Shown here: piece by piece, positions 19,070 to 28,699 of the stretch
Numbering within the stretch: position 1 is the first letter of the stretch
Layout: the number at the start of each line of letters is the position of its first letter
DNA from: the human T2T-CHM13v2.0 reference genome, Homo sapiens
Length of the DNA: 64,000 nucleotides
Assembly: GCF_009914755.1 (NCBI RefSeq)
Contig: NC_060937.1
Reading direction: 5' to 3' (one strand)
Position numbers and translations under genes: made by a program
The notes under the pieces: model-generated
Told to the model about the DNA's origin: nothing
What the model saw: only the letters and a program-made list of their open reading frames with translations
The model's database searches: none

Positions 19070-20758
<1,689 letters not shown>

Positions 20759-20914
20759 TCACTTAATAATCTCATAAATTAGAACATATTACCCCCGTGA
20801 CTCTTGCATAGCTCCAGACAAATACGTGGAACAGATGAAATGGCTGTTTGCTACCAATATTCTATGTGATGCTTCATTTTTTGATTCCTTGAATAACTAC
20901 GTAAAACACATTAA

Positions 20915-21054
20915 CCCATTTATGCCAGAGGCTGCAATTTTTTGAATTTTTGCATGAGTGAAAAATCAGACCTTGTCGATGACCCTGAGTAGTAGGATAC
21001 AAGTAACTCTCTCATGCTTAGCGTTCCAATAATGGAACGCTAAGCATAAGTGGG
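20915..21054 (-). mobile_element. MER85 piggyBac (PGBD3-derived) MITE, complete
   Basis: Exactly 140 bp with CCCATTTATGC...GCATAAGTGGG terminal inverted repeats, TTAA on both sides (20911-20914, 21055-21058) and the internal GTTCCAATAATGGAAC palindrome. Confidence 0.93.
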
Positions 21055-21847
21055 TTAACACGATCATGAAAGCATAGCTATTCAAGTAACTACACGACCG
21101 ATTTTTTTCCTCATCTCTAAAACATAGTAAGGGACCTGTTGTTTTAAAAATACAACACAGTGAAAGTAGTTTCTTTTTAACTCAGTTTTGATTTGTTGTC
21201 TGGGCATAAAGAAAACAAAAAGAGGAGAAACAAGAATAGAAACATGAAATAAAGGCGGCATCAAAAAAAAATTGATGAACAAGATGATGAAAAGAAGAAA
21301 ACACAAACTGGAAGAAAGAGAAAAGAACAGGCATGGGAATTAGAAGGCCTATTATGATACCTTTTATCCCCTCCCCAATTCATGAAATTTGAAAAAGTCC
21401 AAGACTATCACGACAAAACAGAAGCAAAAAAGTTACACTGTCAACCCCCTAATTTTGTTAAGAATGAGACAATGCTGCCACTCACACCACAGTCACCAGC
21501 AGGAGGAGAGCACCCTCCAGAGATTGCTGAAGAAGTGGGAGGACTCCTACTTTCCCTAGGTGTGCCTCCACCACTGTTACTGAGGCCCACAGTACAGCAC
21601 CCGCAGGTTCCTCCCCACCCCAGGTTGGCTGGGCCCTGCAGCACTCCTACTCTCCCTTCCCGGCCCCCAGACTTGCTGCTGCTACCACGACTAGCACTGA
21701 TGCCAATACAACCACTGTCACCTTCGATACAGCAGCCCACCCTACAAGGTTCCTACCACCTTGCCCCTGTGGGCACCCTCCTAGCACTCTGGTCGAGCTG
21801 CAGTCTCCAACACTGTCAACAATAGCATGAGATAAACTGCAGAGCCA

Positions 21848-21940
21848 CTACATACGCAGGCTCCAGTGTACCACAGGTGACTCCTCCTTCTCCTCCTCCA
21901 GCCTGGCTTGGAGCAGCTAAGCAGGCAAAGCCAGAATAGC
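21848..21940 (-). pseudogene. BAGE-like coding remnant (B melanoma antigen exon-1 peptide), disrupted
   Basis: The minus strand translates to AILALPA*LLQARLEEEKEESPVVHWSLRM*, versus recalled BAGE [33 protein letters not shown]. An in-frame TAG sits at the Q position (21917-21919) and there is no ATG. Confidence 0.75.
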
Positions 21941-22479
21941 TTAGAAGGGGATGCAGGGAGTGGTAGCGTTAGTGTCTCACCTTGTCACGCTGGCCACTGG
22001 GTGGCAGGGACCAGTTTTAGTGAAGGCACTCACACCCACCCGCCAAAGTCCAGCCTCTCCTTCTGGCAAAAGCTGGCCAGAAACTGGGACTTGGGGTGAG
22101 TGTAAGTGCCTTCGCTGAAACCACCCCCAGCCAAGTGCAGCTGGCCACAAATTGCTGGGCCCACCAGGGCTGACAGAGCAGGAGTAGGAGAAACTCAGAC
22201 CCAGCCAGCCATCCCCACACAAGTGCTGGTTCCCATTCCTGACACCTCCACCCTCAGTGCCCTGTCCCCACTGTCCCCCGTGATGCCCACTACTCCCTGC
22301 CCAGTAGTCCCAGGTGGTCTCTGCAACACAGAGCATGGGGGCATGGGCCAGGGAACCGCTGTTGGTGTGGGGGCCCTGCCATGTTCGAGAGTGCACGAAC
22401 AGGAGGAGGTTATCCACTAGAGTCTGGAGTTGGGAAGAGGAGAATGGTCACCAGAAGGAGACCACTGCTGTCACTGTCA

Positions 22480-23150
22480 CTGCCACCTCTGCAGCCCACC
22501 AACGCCGCTGACAGTGTACCCCCGACAGCACCCCTAACCTGCCCCCTGCTGCTGGAGGTGTATCTCCTGGATAGCACACCCAACACACCCCGTACCAGTT
22601 TGCAGGCAGTGTAACCCCAGTATTCCCCCAAAGCACCTCCACCCAGGCAGTGTAGCACTGGATAGTGCCCACGACCTGACCCAGCCATGGGTGTTGTTGC
22701 ACTAGATAGTGCCCCAAACCAGTCCCTCACACGTGCCCCACCAAGGTCAGCGCAGCTCCTGATAGCACGCCCCAAGGGCAGTGCAACACCCAACAACGCC
22801 CCTAAACCACCCCCACTACCAGCATTGGAGCTCCGGATAACCACCCCACCCACCCCCTGCCGCAGCCAGTGCAGCAGAAAATAGCGCCCCTAACCCGTCC
22901 CCCGCCACCGACAGTACACATTAGTGCACACAACTTGCCTCCCCCAAACACCCCCACCACCGCGGGCAATGTAGCCCCCTGGTTAGGCAGCCAACCCTCC
23001 CCACCGCCAGCAATGCAACCCTGGAGAGTGCCCCCAACCAGCCCCCTACCACAGGCAGAGCAGCCTCGGGCAGTGAGCCACAATTGGACACCCAACCCCT
23101 GCCCCCAGAGACAGACAGTGCAGCCCCGGATAACTCACCTATGCAACAAC
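22480..23150. repeat. Degenerate C-rich tandem repeat (about 40-50 bp period)
   Basis: Recurrent motif GCAGTG(C/T)AGCCCC(T/G)GATAGCGCCCC(C/T)AACC in many diverged copies. Confidence 0.65.
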
Positions 23151-23455
23151 ATTTCTACCACTCTGGCCAAGCTGTAGTGTCCAACGTCACCTCCAACTGC
23201 AGTGAGGCGAGCTGCGGCGGTGCAAGCTCCAGCCTCCAGCATGTGGTGGTGCCTCTCCCTTCTACTCGTCCTCCTGCCCGGCAGGAGAAGCTCCCGCTGC
23301 TGGCCGCCCTCCTACCGTTCCATCGCCACCACCACCTGCAGCCACCCAGTGCCCCGGATGGCGGCTGCTAGCAGCCCCTTCTCGTAGTTCTCTAAGGCAG
23401 ATACTGAGCACTGACACTGAAGAGCCTGAAACGAGGGGACTCCGCCTCAGCATGC

Positions 23456-23699
23456 TTTATAGCCGAGGTTAAGGCACACGCAGTTCCTGGACTACATGTT
23501 CTGATTGGATGAGAGAAAAACCTTTAGGCCTACTCTGATTGGACTTTATTTTCATGCTGTGATTGGTTGTCTTAAGGCTTGCTCTTATCCAATCAGAACA
23601 TGATAATAAAGTCCAATCCGAGTAACCCCGGAGGTTCCTTCTCATCCAATCAGAGCGTGCAGTCCAGGAATCCTCCTGTATATAACCTCAGTATATGAA
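23456..23699. promoter_or_regulatory. Palindromic bidirectional promoter candidate: TATA-(CCAAT)3 | (CCAAT)3-TATA
   Basis: ATTGG at 23504, 23538 and 23562; CCAAT at 23589, 23613 and 23646, mirror-symmetric about 23577. Minus-strand TATAAA at 23456-23461; plus-strand TATATAA at 23679-23685 and TATATGAA at 23692-23699. Arms 23484-23566 and 23589-23670 are imperfect reverse complements. Confidence 0.7.
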
Positions 23700-23747
23700 T
23701 GCTGCTGAAGGGAAGTCAGGCCCTTGCAAGTTCACGTGTCTTCATGT

Positions 23748-23897
23748 AGAGCTGCTTACTGCCCGGCTTAGAGAACCAGGAATGGGTTATCAGCGGCTGT
23801 GCACTGGATGGTGGGGCCACGACAACGTGGCTCGCCTGGCTGCGGTTGGTGGTGGCGGCAACGGAGACGGCAGCGTGGCTGGAGTGATAGGAGAAGG
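23748..23897 (+). other. BAGE exon-1 5'UTR-like segment
   Basis: GAGCTGCTTACTGCCCGGCTTAGAGAACCAGGA...CGTGGCTCGCCTGGCTGCGGTTGGTGGTGGCGGCAACGGAGACGGCAGCGTGGCTGGAGTGATAGGAG closely resembles the recalled BAGE mRNA leader (GAGCTGCTCTGTTCCCGGCTTAGAGGACCAGGAG...GGTGGTGGCAACAGAGATGGCAGCGCAGCTGGAGTGTTAGGAG). Confidence 0.7.
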
Positions 23898-23899
23898 AA

Positions 23900-25140
23900 A
23901 ATAGTTTTGGGATAGATGGAGGGGGTTAAAGCGGGTGGTTAGGAGTAAAGTGGGTGGTTAGTGCCAAAGGGAAAAGAGGATAGCAAGCAGGAGAAGGCGT
24001 TGCAAAAAGACGATAGGAAAAAGATGGTGGGAAAAAAAAATTTTGGGTAGATGGAGGGGGAAAAACAGGGTGGGGAGCGGGAGGGAGGGAAGGTTTTGCA
24101 GAAAGACGGCGGTTAAAAAGTTTATGGGTAGATGGAGGGGGAAAAGAGGGTGGCAAGTGGGAGGAGGAAAGAGGGTGATAAGGGGGGGAAGTGGGGGTGA
24201 GCAGTAGGGAGAGAAGGTTTTGTGAAAAAAATGGGGAGAAAGGTTTTGGTTAGACGGGAGAAAAGAGGGTAACAAGTTGGGGAAGGAAAAAGAGGGTAGC
24301 TAGGAGGAAGACAAGGTTTTGCGAAAAGATAGCGGCCAGAAAAGAAAGACGGTGGAGAAAGAAAAGACGGTGGGTAAAAAGTGGGTAGATGGAGTGGGGA
24401 AAGAGGGTTGGGAAAAAAGGGAACTTAGTTTGGAGTAGATGGAGGGCAAAAAAGAGAGTGGCAAGCAGGACAGGTCAAAGAAGAGAACGAGTGGGAAGAG
24501 GGGATGACTTTGTGAAACGGCGGTGGGGAAAATTTGGGAGGATAGATGGAGGGGGAAAAGAGCGAGGTGAGCAGGAGCCGGGGAGAAGGCTTTACGAAAA
24601 TACGGTGGGGAAAATTTTGGGGGATAGATGGAGGGGGAAAAGAGGGAGGTAAGCAGGAGTGGGGAGAAGGCTTTGCGAAAAGACGGTGGGGAAATGTTTT
24701 TGGGTAGATTAGAGAAGGGAAAGAGGGTGGCAAGGAGGAGCGGAGGGAAAGACGGTGAGGAGAACAGTTTTGGGTAGATGAAGGGGTAAAAGAGGGTGGT
24801 GAGCAGCAAGAGTGGGGATAAGGCTTTGGGAAAAGACGGGGAAATGTTTTTACTTAGATGAAGGAGCAAAAGAGGGTGATGAGAGTGGGACGGGGAAAAA
24901 GAAGGTGGCCAGAGAGAAGGGGAAAAGACTGGGAAAAATCAGTGGGGAAAGTGTTTAGGTAGACGGTTGGGGAAAGGGTGGTGAGCGGGAGAGTAGAGAA
25001 GGGTTTGCGAAATGACGGTGGGGAAAAAGTTTTGGGCTAGATGGAGGAAGAAAATGGGTGGTGAGGGGGGAGGGGCCAAAGGCGGTTGGGAAAAGAAGGT
25101 GGGGAAATAAAGGTGGGAGACAAAGGTTTTGGGTAGATTT
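23900..25140 (+). repeat. GA-rich degenerate tandem repeat (about 70-85 bp unit)
   Basis: More than 10 copies of TTTGGGTAGATGGAGGGGGAAAAGAGGGTGG...GAGAAGG(C/T)TTTGCGAAAAGACGGTGGGGAAAA, with strong purine skew. Confidence 0.85.
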
Positions 25141-25144
25141 TTTA

Positions 25145-28100
25145 AAAATCAGATTGTTTATATTTTTGCTTTTGAGTAGTTTGAGTTCTTTATATATTTT
25201 GTGTCTTAACCCCTTGGCTGATGCATAGTTTGCAAATGCTTTCTTCCATTCTCTGGGTTGCTTCCTCATTCTACTGATTGCTTCCTCTGCTTTGCAGAAG
25301 CTTTTAAGTTTAATGTAATTACATCTTTGGTTTTGTTGCTTGTGCTTTGACAAGTTTAATGTAATTAAACTTTTGCTTTTGTTGCTTGTGCTTTTGATAT
25401 CTATTTGAAAATCCCTTGTCCTAACCAATTTCATGAAGCGTTTATCCTGTCTTCGTCTCTAGTACTTTCATGGTTTCTGGTCCTACTTTTAAATTTTTAT
25501 TTTGAGTAGATTTTTGTATATGGTAAGATAACGGCCTAGATGGATTCTTGTACATGTGGCTGTTGGGTTTTCCTAGCACAGTTTATTGAAGAGATTGTCC
25601 TTCCTGAATGTGTGTTCTTGGTGCCTTTGTTAAAAATGAGTTGACTGTAAATGCGTGAATTTATTTCTGATTTCTCATTCTGTTTCATTAGTCTATGTCT
25701 CTGTCATTCCTTCATTTCTCGGTCTCTCCCCCGCCCATTTTTTGATAGTCTTATGCTGTTTTGATAGTACCTGGCTTACTATAGGTTTGTAGTATATTTT
25801 GAAATCAGGTAGTGTGATGAATCCAGCTTTTCTTTTTATTCCAGATTATTTTGTCTATGTGAGGTATTTTGCATTTCCATGTGAATTTCAGGATTTTTTT
25901 TCTAGTTCTATGAAGAATGTCTTTTGTAATTTAACACGGATTGCATTGATTCTGTAGATCACATTGGGTGATATAGATATTTTAACAATATTCTTCGGGT
26001 GCGTGGACATGGAATATTTTTCCATTTACTTGTGTCTGCTTTAATATCTTTCATCTATGCTTTATAGTTTTCATTGTGGGATCTTTTGTCTTTTTGGTGA
26101 AGTTTATCCCTAGATATCATTTTTTTGGTAATGAAATAGATTTCTTGATTTTTTTCTTAGGTATTTCACTATTGGTGCATGGGTGTGTGCCAGTTTTTAT
26201 ATATTGATATTGTATCTTGCAACTTAACTAAATTTATAATTTCTAGTCGGTTTTTTTGTGGAATCTTTAGGGTTCTCTATATATATATGTGTATATATGT
26301 ATATATGTATGTATGTATATATACATGTGTGTATGTATATATGTGTATATATGTATGTGCGTATGTGTATATGTGTATGTATATATATGATCATGTCCCC
26401 TGCAAACAAAGACAGTCTGACTTCCGTTATTCTAATTTGGATGTCTTTTATTGCATTCTCCTAATTGCCCTACCTAGGACTTCCAGTACTGTGATGAATA
26501 AAAGTGGTGTAAAAGTAGCCACACTTGTTCCAGGTCTTAGAGGAAGAGCTTTTAACTTTTCCCCATTGATTATGATGTTAGCTGTGGGTTTGTCCCATAT
26601 GGCCTTTATTGCGCTGAGATACGTTGTTTTGTACTCATGTTGTTCAGTTTTTATCATGAAGGAATGTTGATTTTTATTTTTTTCAGCATCTACTGAAAAG
26701 ATTATATGGTTTTATTCTTGATTTGCTGAATGTGATGTCGCACATCTATTTATTTGTGTTTATTGAATCCTCCTCACATTCCTGGGATGAATCTCACTTG
26801 ATCATGGCAGATCATCTTTTTATTGTGTTGTCAAATGCAATTTTCAAGTATTTTATTGAGGATTTTTTTGCGTCTGTATTCATCAAGGATATTTGCCTGT
26901 GGTTTTCTTTTTGTGTTGTGTCCTGGTCTGGTTTTTGAACCAGGGTCATGCTTCCCTCATAGAACAAGTTTCAAAGCCTTCCTTCCTCTTCATTTTTTGG
27001 GGAATATTTTGAGTAAAATTGATATTAGCTCTTTTAAAAATTTTTGATAGAATTCAGCAGTAAAAAAAATGATTCTTGTGTTTTTCTTTGACAGAAGACT
27101 TTTTATTCCTGCTTTAATTACATTACTCATTATTGGTCTGTTCAGGTTTTTTATTTCTTCATCATTCTATCTTGTGAATTTGTTGTATGTCCAGAAATTT
27201 GTTCATTTCTCCTAGATTTTTCTATTTGTTTTTATATAGGTGTTTTCAATAATCTCTTACAATCCTTCATATATCTGTGTTATCAGTTGTAATGTCTCCT
27301 TTTTCATCTATGATCTTATTTTCTTTTTCTTTCCAATTAAAGCTTATCAATTTTGATTTAAAAAAAAAAAAATCCTAGCTCTTTATGCCATTGGTTTTTG
27401 GTATTTTTTTGTTTCTATTTTTAAAATTTGTTTTCTAATCTTTATGATATTTTTTCTACTAATTTTAGCATTTTATTTTTCTTGTTTTTCTCATTGCTTG
27501 AGGTGTACTGTCAGGTTGACTGAGATCTTTCTACTTTTCTGATGTAGGCACTTATAGCTATGCACTTTTCCTCTTACGTCTGCCTTTGCTGCATCCCACG
27601 GGATTTGTTATGTTGTGTTTCTGTTCTTATTTGTTTCAATAAATTTTTAATTTCCTTTTTATCTTTTTCATTTATTTATTGGTTGTTCATGAGCATGTAT
27701 TTTAATTTCCATATATTTGTATAGTTTTTAAAGTTCCTCCTGTTACTGATTTCTAGTACTATTCCACTGTGGTCAGAAAAGATGCTTAATATGATTTCGG
27801 TTTTTAAAAATGTTCTATGACTTGTTTTTTGGCCTAACACATAGTCTTTCCTGGAGAATAATCCATGTGCTACTCAGTGGAATGTGCATTGTGCAGTTGC
27901 AGAGTGGAAAGCTGTGTAAATGTTAGGTCCATTCGGTGTAGATTACAGTTTAACTGATGATGTCTTGTTGCCTGGATGATCTATCCATTGATGATAGTGA
28001 AGTGTTGATTATAGTGGAGCGTTGAGGTACTCTATTACTGTATTGCAGTCTATCTGTCCTTTAAGGTCTGTTAATATTTGCTTCTGTGTTCAGTTGCTTG

Positions 28101-28699
28101 AGTGCTGGTTGCATATGCGCTTATAATTGTTATGCTGCTGTTTACTTCTTTCTCATGATGTAATTATCTTCATTTTTTTCCTTTTTTGACTGACAGCGTA
28201 TTTTATCTAAGTATAGCTATTCCTGCTTTTTTGTTTCCATCCCTTCACTTTCAGTCTATGTATGTCTTTGTAGGTGAACTGAGTTTCTTATAGGCAGTAT
28301 ATAATTGGGTCTTGTTTTTTAATCCATTCAGCCACTCAGTCTTAATTGGAGAATTTAATTCATTTATATTCAAGGTTATTGCTAACAGGTAAAAACATAC
28401 TACTGCCATTTTTTGCTTGTTTTCGGGTTGTTTTGCTACTCTTTTTGCTTTTCTTTCTCGCTTCCTTCCTCTTTCTCTTCTCTCTGATCTTTCTTTTTTC
28501 CTTCCTTTCTCTTCTTTCCTCCTTCCCTTCCTTCCTGTATTTATTTGTAGTGAGGTAATTTTTTCAGGTAGTATGTTTTAATTCCTTGCTTTTAATTTTT
28601 AGGGTGTCTATTATTGATTTTTGTTTTCTGGTTACCATGAGGCTAAACAACATAATTATAATCAGTTATTTTAAACTGAAGAAAACTTAACTTTGATTG

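What the first reader, a model, noticed from the sequence alone, without database searches (positions are those of the whole stretch)
23456..23699. Mirror-symmetric palindromic promoter with three CCAAT boxes and a TATA box on each arm
Seen: 23484-23566 and 23589-23670 are imperfect reverse complements (left TTCCTGGACTACATGTTCTGATTGGATGAG...GATTGGACTTTATTTTCATG; right arm reverse-complemented TTCCTGGACTGCACGCTCTGATTGGATGAG...GATTGGACTTTATTATCATG). The six CCAAT boxes sit at mirror positions with spacings 34/24 and 24/33, and the symmetry extends to TATA-like boxes at both ends. Known: multiple CCAAT boxes about 30 bp apart bind NF-Y and are common in bidirectional promoters. Inference: an inverted duplication of one promoter created a head-to-head bidirectional promoter that could also extrude a cruciform. 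No ordinary repeat family I recognise explains it.
Basis: partly seen in the sequence, partly recalled or inferred. Interest (0 to 1): 0.8.

Follow-up and report, generated by a model that had tools for sequence, protein, structure and literature searches.

The report
Palindromic core of REP522/BAGE-type promoter
The mirror-image stretch with six CCAAT boxes is real, but it is one copy of a known human repeat (REP522) whose palindromic centre is also the promoter region of the cancer/testis BAGE genes, so it is interesting biology that is largely already described.

Summary
Positions 23484-23566 and 23589-23670 are imperfect reverse complements (83 nt, 82%; z = 30.8 against 1000 shuffles). They carry six CCAAT/ATTGG boxes spaced 34/24/27/24/33 nt, with TATA-like boxes outside them.

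It is not a unique element. At least 45 places in the same genome carry it (pericentromeric, acrocentric short-arm and segmental-duplication regions), and 41 of 42 fetched copies keep the central palindrome.

Three lines identify it as the core of REP522:
- The annotated miR-5701 hairpin loci on chr15 are copies of the centre, and a preprint places miR-5701 in "Rep522".
- A meeting abstract describes REP522 as about 1.8 kb, largely palindromic and enriched among cancer-activated CAGE promoters.
- Published BAGE methylation-assay primers (+32, +99) hit 12 loci, mostly with the six boxes at the offsets seen in the window.

The RefSeq lncRNA LOC107984132 starts at the left arm and is a paralogue of the BAGE 5' end.

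Best reading: an anciently inverted-duplicated TATA plus 3xCCAAT (NF-Y-type) promoter, silenced by methylation and active in testis or cancer. Rightward transcription, NF-Y binding and cruciform formation are untested. CCAAT boxes show only modest extra conservation.

Verdict: already known; low to moderate interest.

The parts
23484..23566 (.). Left arm of the core palindrome, with three ATTGG (inverted CCAAT) boxes starting at 23504, 23538 and 23562
   Evidence: The boxes are intact in 39, 41 and 31 of 42 family copies.
23567..23588 (.). 22-nt spacer at the axis of symmetry
23589..23670 (.). Right arm of the core palindrome, with three CCAAT boxes starting at 23589, 23613 and 23646
   Evidence: The boxes are intact in 37, 40 and 39 of 42 copies.
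23455..23462 (-). Left TATA box (CTATAAAG read on the minus strand). Its first T lies 18 nt upstream of the RefSeq 5' end and 34 nt upstream of the BAGE-equivalent +1 (23427).
   Evidence: A TATA-like motif is present at this place in 22 of 42 copies.
23680..23699 (+). Right TATA region. The ancestral box (family consensus CAGTATATAAAT) is weakened here to TATATGAA at 23692-23699. A second TATATAA at 23680-23686 is shared only with the closest paralogues.
   Evidence: A TATA-like motif is present on this side in 28 of 42 copies.
23139..23443 (-). Exon 1 of lncRNA LOC107984132, which starts at the outer edge of the left arm. It is homologous to the BAGE 5' region; the counterpart of BAGE primer +32f lies at 23396-23371 and matches 21 of 26 by eye.
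   Evidence: Gene table supplied with the finding.
23382..23410 (.). Outer left part of the palindrome, mirrored at 23753-23781 (72%)
   Evidence: I4; for the consensus.
23753..23781 (.). Outer right part of the palindrome, mirror of 23382-23410
   Evidence: I4.
23535..23620 (.). Central hairpin homologous to the miR-5701 precursor loci on chr15. The mature-miRNA counterparts are 23546-23564 (+, 4 of 19 mismatches) and 23609-23591 (-, 2 of 19 mismatches).
23900..25140 (+). G+A-rich array of about 81-82-nt units downstream of the right arm (GC skew about +0.8). It is part of the same duplicated unit.
21400..25150 (.). GC-rich island that holds the palindrome and is shared with the paralogues. 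GC skew changes sign at the palindrome, so the non-template strand is G-rich in both outward directions.

Best explanation
The finding is the palindromic core of one copy of REP522, a catalogued, little-studied human repeat spread through pericentromeric, acrocentric and segmental-duplication regions.

The core is an ancient inverted duplication of a small promoter together with the first ~90 nt of its transcribed region. Each arm has, from the centre outwards, three CCAAT boxes of the NF-Y type, a TATA box about 45 nt beyond the outermost box, and a CpG-rich flank whose non-template strand is G-rich.

In this copy the left arm drives the lncRNA LOC107984132. In a sister subfamily the same arm lies upstream of the cancer/testis BAGE genes.

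Inferred mechanism: the ubiquitous CCAAT factor NF-Y occupies the boxes when the CpG-rich flanks are unmethylated (germ line, early embryo, hypomethylated tumours). Transcription then starts outward from one or both TATA boxes. In somatic tissue the copies are methylated and silent.

Shown here: the structure, the family, the homology to miR-5701 and BAGE loci, and the position of the annotated 5' end. Inferred: NF-Y binding, methylation control of this particular copy, and any rightward transcription.
For: (1) Family. A 401-nt query around the palindrome matches 40 places in the genome, the window included, at 72-100% identity, and each place also matches on the opposite strand. Of 42 fetched loci, 41 keep a self-complementary match centred on the axis.

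(2) REP522 identity.
- The mature miR-5701 sequence, read from primers printed in a preprint, occurs exactly at only two places, both on chr15. Those loci carry the same palindrome (77% over 253 nt to window 23491-23742).
- A preprint states that hsa-miR-5701 overlaps the 'Rep522 repeat'.
- A paper places a large REP522 region at the BAGE locus.

(3) BAGE link.
- Primer BAGE.BS+32f from PMC3757347 matches 12 places, and 9 of them adjoin copies found.
- Primer BS99f lies 68 nt downstream of the first at 11 of the 12.
- At 7 of the 12, CCAAT boxes lie at -254, -221, -197, -170, -146 and -113 from the first primer. The window's minus strand has them at -254, -221, -197, -170, -146 and -112.

(4) Promoter geometry. 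Relative to the RefSeq 5' end at 23443 the left TATA is at -18; relative to the BAGE-equivalent +1 it is at -34. The proximal CCAAT box is centred at -63 and -79 on the same two scales. Four of the six boxes are the 8-mer CCAATCAG/CTGATTGG, and only four other copies of that 8-mer occur in the rest of the window.

(5) Box conservation. The CCAAT pentamers are intact in 31-41 of 42 copies. They took 0.77 substitution events per site on the family tree, against 1.23 for other non-CpG core sites; 420 of 20000 random sets of six core pentamers did as well.

(6) Expression and methylation in print.
- BAGE loci are hypermethylated in normal tissue and hypomethylated in cancers (abstract in the listing).
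- BAGE genes are expressed only in testis and cancer.
- REP522 RNA rises at the human 8-cell stage.
Against: - No RepeatMasker or Dfam comparison could be run. The REP522 label rests on a chain of homology plus statements in papers.
- The hub's list of NCBI-masked stretches names none of 300 nt or more between 21400 and 25150.
- The core as a whole is not clearly more conserved than neutral-looking sequence. Its divergence from 12 paralogues is 0.116, against 0.120-0.125 for AT-rich far flanks shared by 4 of them. Only transversions (0.031 vs 0.055-0.059) and gaps are fewer. The contrast with the immediate flanks (about 3.0 events per site) may reflect fast decay of those CpG-rich flanks.
- The box-specific signal is modest, at 420 of 20000. 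The far stronger figure from simple copy counts (1 of 20000) is inflated by shared ancestry.
- TATA boxes are kept on both sides in only 17 of 42 copies, and the BAGE-type copies lack the TATA on the BAGE side.
- In this copy the ancestral right TATA is mutated, and no rightward transcript is annotated.
- The RefSeq 5' end is 18 nt from the TATA, not the usual ~30.
- BAGE was not expressed in hypomethylated ICF cells, so demethylation alone is not sufficient.
- The two papers that analyse REP522 promoters (Kaczkowski 2016, Horie 2017) are not held. I could not see what they say about motifs or direction.
Confidence: 0.8

Rival explanations
1. The palindrome is a microRNA gene: transcription through the centre gives a hairpin that is processed into a miR-5701-like small RNA.
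For: - The chr15 copies hold the exact mature miR-5701 sequence in the left arm of the same hairpin.
- A preprint reports effects of miR-5701 mimics and inhibitors on RPL36A.
- The centre folds far better than shuffles (ssDNA -58.7 kcal/mol, z -11.5).
- It gives weak, sub-threshold hits to unrelated miRNA models in Rfam.
Against: - The window copy differs from the mature sequence at 4 of 19 (plus strand) and 2 of 19 (minus strand) positions. Only 2 places in the genome match exactly.
- No Rfam family reaches its gathering score.
- The hairpin lies upstream of both outward start sites.
- Arms evolve without compensation: 5 of 52 pairs show any double change, and the covariation term is -0.98 of -36.4 kcal/mol.
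Confidence: 0.05
2. This copy is an inert relic: a decayed member of a duplicated repeat, kept only by descent. Its promoter-like motifs have no function here, and the lncRNA model reflects mis-assigned reads from paralogues.
For: - Whole-core divergence is about that of neutral-looking far flanks.
- The right TATA is mutated and the box at 23613 has lost the family's CCAATCAG flank.
- The region is pericentromeric and surrounded by pseudogenes (gene table).
- Paralogues at 83-88% identity make mapping ambiguous.
Against: - All six CCAAT pentamers and the left TATA are intact in this copy.
- A BestRefSeq transcript starts exactly at the arm's outer edge and has a canonical GT donor at the end of exon 1 (gene table).
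- The boxes show fewer substitution events than the rest of the core.
Confidence: 0.12
3. The inverted repeat acts structurally: it extrudes a cruciform or stalls replication, promoting the rearrangements and duplications that spread the family, rather than acting as a promoter.
For: - The strand folds into a long hairpin as single-stranded DNA (-58.7 kcal/mol, 0 of 200 shuffles as good).
- Copies sit in duplication-rich pericentromeric and acrocentric regions.
- Several copies lie as inverted pairs, for example on chr9 and chr15.
Against: - Arms are only 82% alike with a 22-nt spacer. From general knowledge this disfavours extrusion.
- One-sided transitions accumulate without compensation at several pairs, in 9-14 of 39 copies each.
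- Homology between copies runs for 4.5 to more than 8 kb on both sides. The palindrome is therefore in the middle of the duplicated unit, not at its breakpoints.
Confidence: 0.03

Closest known systems
REP522 (RepeatMasker class 'Satellite/telo'; described as an unclassified interspersed repeat)
   Same: - Largely palindromic.
- Found in telomere-near and pericentromeric DNA and at the BAGE locus.
- Overlaps the miR-5701 hairpin.
- Carries promoters that are switched on in cancers and RNA that rises at the 8-cell stage.
- The window element is homologous to the miR-5701 and BAGE copies.
   Different: - In this copy the strong palindrome is only 187 nt, with faint traces beyond.
- Copies share homology over 4.5 to more than 8 kb, more than the ~1.8 kb quoted for the consensus.
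- The match to the REP522 consensus itself could not be run.
BAGE (B melanoma antigen) gene family 5' regions
   Same: - Same six CCAAT boxes at the same offsets from the homologue of primer +32f.
- Same transcription direction as LOC107984132.
- Homologous first ~130 transcribed nt.
- BAGE loci are methylated in normal tissue, hypomethylated in cancer, and expressed in testis and cancer.
   Different: - The window copy does not match the BAGE primers exactly (21 of 26 for +32f, by eye). It belongs to another subfamily, about 70% identical to a BAGE-type copy over the island (L046).
- It keeps the TATA box that BAGE-type copies lack on that side.
Multi-CCAAT NF-Y promoters, including LTR12/HERV-9 LTRs and CCAAT-rich bidirectional promoters (recalled from general knowledge, no call)
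   Same: - Several CCAAT boxes of the CCAATCAG type, 24-34 nt apart.
- The proximal box lies 60-100 nt upstream of the start.
- Germ-line or tumour-restricted activity.
   Different: - The boxes here are arranged as a true mirror image, produced by inverted duplication.
- NF-Y binding has not been tested.
- No held paper joins REP522 with CCAAT or NF-Y.
hsa-mir-5701 precursor
   Same: The central hairpin 23535-23620 is homologous to the chr15 loci that hold the exact mature sequence.
   Different: There are 2 and 4 mismatches in 19 nt to the mature sequence, so this is not an annotated miRNA locus.

Membership tests
REP522 repeat | Significant match to the REP522 consensus (Repbase/Dfam) by RepeatMasker or nhmmer | not testable with these tools
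   No repeat library is on hand. The hub's mask list shows no masked stretch of 300 nt or more here.
REP522 repeat | Largely palindromic unit of about 1.8 kb (wording) | tested here: met
   - Central palindrome present in 41 of 42 copies, up to ~600 nt long. Mirrored patches reach about +-1 kb in the chr15 copies.
- The consensus is self-complementary over 409 of 420 nt.
- In the window copy itself only 187 nt are strong.
REP522 repeat | Contains the miR-5701 hairpin (one search says miR-5701 overlaps Rep522) | tested here: met
   The two exact miR-5701 loci align to window 23491-23742 at 77% and have the same box layout.
REP522 repeat | Present at the BAGE locus and in telomere-near or pericentromeric DNA | tested here: met
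   9 of the 12 BAGE-primer sites adjoin family copies. Copies lie on acrocentric short arms and near centromeres.
BAGE locus (as defined by the COBRA assay) | Exact sites for primers BAGE.BS+32f and BS99f about 68 nt apart | tested here: not met
   The window is not among the 12 places matching with up to 1 mismatch. Its counterpart differs at 5 of 26 positions. It is a paralogue, not a BAGE locus.
NF-Y-dependent CCAAT promoter | CCAAT pentamers with NF-Y-type flanks, 60-100 nt upstream of the start site | tested here: met
   Four of six boxes are CCAATCAG/CTGATTGG. The proximal box is centred at -63 from the RefSeq 5' end and -79 from the BAGE-equivalent +1. The consensus flanks themselves are recalled knowledge.
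NF-Y-dependent CCAAT promoter | NF-Y occupancy, and loss of activity on CCAAT mutation | not testable with these tools
   Needs ChIP and reporter assays.
Bidirectional promoter | Two divergent transcription start sites less than 1 kb apart | tested here: inconclusive
   Only the minus-strand start (23443) is annotated. The plus-strand side has a mutated ancestral TATA and no gene model (gene table).
miRNA gene mir-5701 | Exact mature sequence in a hairpin arm | tested here: not met
   2 and 4 mismatches of 19.
Cruciform-forming inverted repeat | Near-perfect arms with a short spacer, with arms kept complementary over time | tested here: not met
   82% arms and a 22-nt spacer. 5 of 52 pairs show any compensatory change.

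The most novel reading that the evidence does not exclude
The REP522 core is a self-contained, NF-Y-driven divergent promoter cassette that segmental duplication has carried to 45 or more places in the genome. There it has seeded lineage-specific transcripts: the BAGE genes, LOC107984132 and other lncRNAs. Its CCAAT boxes are kept by selection across copies. This would explain the burst of REP522 RNA at embryonic genome activation and in hypomethylated tumours. No paper in the searchable library links REP522 with CCAAT or NF-Y. The two key subscription papers could not be read.
Probability: 0.4. Interest if true: 0.5.

Novelty: already known. Interest (0 to 1): 0.25.

Why it matters
If the reading is right, a single duplicated promoter cassette accounts for three things: the cancer/testis expression of BAGE, a set of pericentromeric lncRNAs, and the 'REP522' signal seen in tumour and early-embryo RNA data. 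That gives a concrete, testable cis-element (six CCAAT boxes) for how heterochromatic repeats become transcribed when methylation is lost. For this window the practical value is annotation: 23380-23780 should be labelled as the REP522 core and a BAGE-type promoter paralogue, not as a new class of element.

Tried and rejected
- A paper search for the lncRNA name found nothing. A search for 'HSREP522' found nothing.
- Kaczkowski 2016 and Horie 2017 are not held. What they say about REP522 start sites, direction or motifs is unseen. One paper listed for REP522 had no mention in its main text.
- The Rfam scan of 20500-26500 gave no family at its gathering score, only weak miRNA-like hits on the hairpin.
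- The window file carries no soft-masking, so NCBI's mask could not be read at base level.
- A 13-nt piece of the miR-5701 primer gave no exact match in the first 20 loci. With 3 mismatches it was not enriched in the window: 23 matches against 16.6 expected.
- A scan of translated flanks for a three-residue motif recalled from the BAGE protein found it near the palindrome only in the window copy. This was dropped as uninformative, and the BAGE link was made through published primers instead.
- The idea that the whole core is under strong purifying selection was weakened. The contrast with the immediate flanks is not seen against AT-rich far flanks.
- A transposon-with-terminal-inverted-repeats reading was set aside, because copies share 4.5 to more than 8 kb on both sides of the palindrome.
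- Selection on hairpin pairing was not supported.

Full report

Yes.

- The repeat finder reports arms 23484-23514/23640-23670 (31 nt, 90%) and 23519-23566/23589-23636 (48 nt, 81%).
- A BLAST of the reverse-complemented left half against the right half merges them into one 83-nt match at 82% around a 22-nt spacer.
- The self-reverse-complement score of the 244-nt stretch is 154. In 1000 dinucleotide-preserving shuffles the mean was 20.4, sd 4.3 and maximum 44.
- The six boxes start at 23504, 23538, 23562 (ATTGG) and 23589, 23613, 23646 (CCAAT), spaced 34/24/27/24/33 nt.
- That is six boxes in 187 nt against 0.31 expected from the window-wide density, and it is the densest cluster in the window.
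- Four of the six are the 8-mer CCAATCAG/CTGATTGG, which occurs only four more times in the other 63.8 kb.
- TATA-like boxes sit outside both arms.

**2. It is a multi-copy element, and the palindrome is ancestral.**

- A 401-nt query (23380-23780) matches 40 places in the same genome, itself included, at 72-100% identity. The places are on chr2, 5, 7, 9, 10, 13, 14, 15, 17, 18, 20, 21 and 22. Every place also matches on the opposite strand. The tool says such counts are lower bounds.
- Five more places came from later pattern searches.
- Of 42 fetched loci, 41 have a self-complementary match centred on the axis; L027 is truncated. In one subfamily the palindrome is about 600 nt long. In the chr15 copies mirrored patches reach about 1 kb from the axis.
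- The majority consensus of the 42 copies is self-complementary over 409 of 420 nt at 82%. This includes CAGTATATAAA on each side and about 90 nt beyond it.
- The inverted duplication therefore took in a TATA box and the start of a transcribed region, and it happened before the family spread.
- Homology between copies is not limited to the palindrome. Several copies align to the window continuously over 20720-25270 (75-79%). Some also align over 19487-20058 and 25352-28240 (80-86%), interrupted by Alu-sized insertions.

**3. What family is it?**

Two independent bridges lead to named entities.

*(a) miR-5701.*
- Primers printed in a 2026 preprint give the mature miR-5701 sequence.
- It occurs exactly at only two places in the genome, both on chr15.
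- Those loci have the same palindrome, box for box (77% over 253 nt).
- A 2021 preprint states that hsa-miR-5701 overlaps the 'Rep522 repeat'.
- RepeatMasker files it as Satellite/telo.

*(b) BAGE.*
- The nested bisulphite primers BAGE.BS+32f and BS99f are printed in PMC3757347.
- With converted positions written as Y, the first primer matches 12 places (11 exact, 1 with one mismatch), and 9 of them adjoin copies already found.
- The second primer lies 68 nt downstream at 11 of the 12.
- At 7 of the 12 there are CCAAT boxes at -254, -221, -197, -170, -146 and -113 from the first primer; one of these 7 has a seventh box.
- On the window's minus strand the boxes lie at -254, -221, -197, -170, -146 and -112 from the homologous CTTAGAG at 23396.
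- PMC3084872 speaks of twelve BAGE loci on chr9, 13, 18 and 21, expressed only in testis and cancer and methylated in normal cells.
- The abstract of PMC3757347 says BAGE loci are hypomethylated in 98% of cancers (listing).

The window copy is not itself a BAGE locus, because its primer counterpart differs at 5 of 26 positions. It is a paralogue from a different subfamily.

I could not run the direct test, a Dfam or RepeatMasker match. The hub's mask list shows no long masked stretch here, which I cannot explain.

**4. Promoter anatomy in this copy.**

- The RefSeq lncRNA LOC107984132 begins at 23443 on the minus strand (gene table), at the outer edge of the left arm. Its exon 1 ends at a GTGAGT donor.
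- The left TATA (CTATAAAG, 23462-23455) is 18 nt upstream of that 5' end and 34 nt upstream of the BAGE-equivalent +1 at 23427.
- The three same-side boxes are centred at -63/-97/-121 relative to 23443, or -79/-113/-137 relative to 23427.
- On the right, the ancestral TATATAAAT is TATATGAAT here. A nearby TATATAA is shared only with the closest paralogues.
- No plus-strand gene is annotated.
- Across copies a TATA-like motif is present on the left in 22, on the right in 28 and on both sides in 17 of 42. BAGE-type copies lack it on the BAGE side.
- The palindrome sits in a GC-rich island (about 21400-25150). Its GC skew is negative to the left and strongly positive to the right, so the non-template strand is G-rich in both outward directions.
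- The right side is an array of 81-82-nt G+A-rich units.

**5. Is there evidence of constraint?**

The evidence is mixed.

- The CCAAT pentamers are intact in 39, 41, 31, 37, 40 and 39 of 42 copies.
- By simple copy counts, the six boxes are far better kept than random core pentamers: 0.896 against 0.640, with 1 of 20000 random sets as good. That test ignores shared ancestry.
- Counting substitution events on a FastTree tree of 40 distinct rows gives 0.77 events per site in the boxes. Other non-CpG core sites have 1.23, and the immediate flanks about 3.0. In this test 420 of 20000 random sets of six core pentamers had as few events.
- Against a better neutral yardstick, the core as a whole is not special. 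It shows 0.116 mismatches per site over 12 paralogues. AT-rich far flanks shared by 4 of them show 0.120-0.125. The core does have about half the transversions and far fewer gaps.
- I read this as modest, box-specific constraint on top of a slowly decaying CpG-poor core, flanked by fast-decaying CpG-rich sequence.

**6. Hairpin and cruciform readings.**

- As single-stranded DNA the stretch folds at -58.7 kcal/mol, with z = -11.5 and 0 of 200 shuffles as good.
- RNAalifold on 39 copies finds only 5 of 52 pairs with any double change, and a covariation term of -0.98 out of -36.4 kcal/mol. Several pairs carry one-sided transitions in 9-14 copies.
- The window copy differs from mature miR-5701 at 4 of 19 and 2 of 19 positions.
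- No Rfam family reaches threshold.
- The pairing looks like a by-product of the inverted duplication, not a selected structure.

**7. Mechanism proposed.**

- Shown: the mirror-image TATA/3xCCAAT architecture, its antiquity, its spread, the annotated start at one arm, and the homology to BAGE promoters.
- From print: REP522 promoters are activated in cancers. REP522-linked lncRNAs are reported as cancer-specific (citing Horie 2017, which I did not see). REP522 RNA rises at the 8-cell stage. BAGE loci are methylated in normal tissue and hypomethylated in cancer.
- Inferred: NF-Y binds the boxes. From recalled knowledge, CCAATCAG is its preferred site and -60 to -100 its usual position. The CpG-rich flanks mediate methylation silencing, and loss of methylation permits outward initiation.
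- Hypomethylation alone did not activate BAGE in ICF cells, so other factors are needed.

**8. Comparison, novelty and verdict.**

- The element is a member of a catalogued repeat family, and the promoter behaviour of that family is in print.
- I did not find any held paper that joins REP522 with CCAAT or NF-Y. I also did not find a statement that the BAGE upstream region is one arm of the REP522 palindrome. The key papers are outside the library, so I do not claim either point is new.
- Novelty: already known. Interest: 0.25.

Noticed in passing
window 22002-22133: A second, smaller inverted repeat lies about 1.5 kb left of the main one (arms 22002-22041 and 22094-22133, 40 nt, 78%). It is also kept in other copies: self-matches of 108-134 nt at the homologous place in L009, L011, L014, L018, L019, L020, L023 and L033. 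Its function is unknown.
   Followed up: partly
window 23900-25140: A G+A-rich array of about 81-82-nt units (TRF rows 24514-24907; GC skew about +0.8) lies directly downstream of the right arm. It is shared with paralogues but variable in length. With the C-rich left side, both outward transcripts would have a G-rich non-template strand, which from general knowledge is prone to R-loops.
   Followed up: partly
L021 and L022 (G000 chr15:18855324-18858342 and 19726407-19729425): These are the only two exact genomic matches to mature miR-5701. They are an inverted pair of REP522 cores about 0.87 Mb apart. The miRNA lies inside the CCAAT-box region and overlaps the innermost box of one arm.
   Followed up: partly
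L066 (G000 chr13:18098122-18101147), about 190 kb before the window start: A further, partly deleted copy of the element (4 boxes) carries a one-mismatch site for the BAGE +32 primer. chr13 therefore holds several subfamilies close together.
   Followed up: no
L015, L016, L017 (chr21:9.10 Mb, chr14:7.27 Mb, chr13:12.02 Mb): Three copies on different acrocentric chromosomes are identical over the aligned ~420 nt. This fits recent exchange between acrocentric short arms.
   Followed up: no
window 23696-23905 (+): An ATG overlapping the mutated right TATA opens a 69-codon frame, read by eye. It was not examined further and is probably chance in GC-rich sequence.
   Followed up: no
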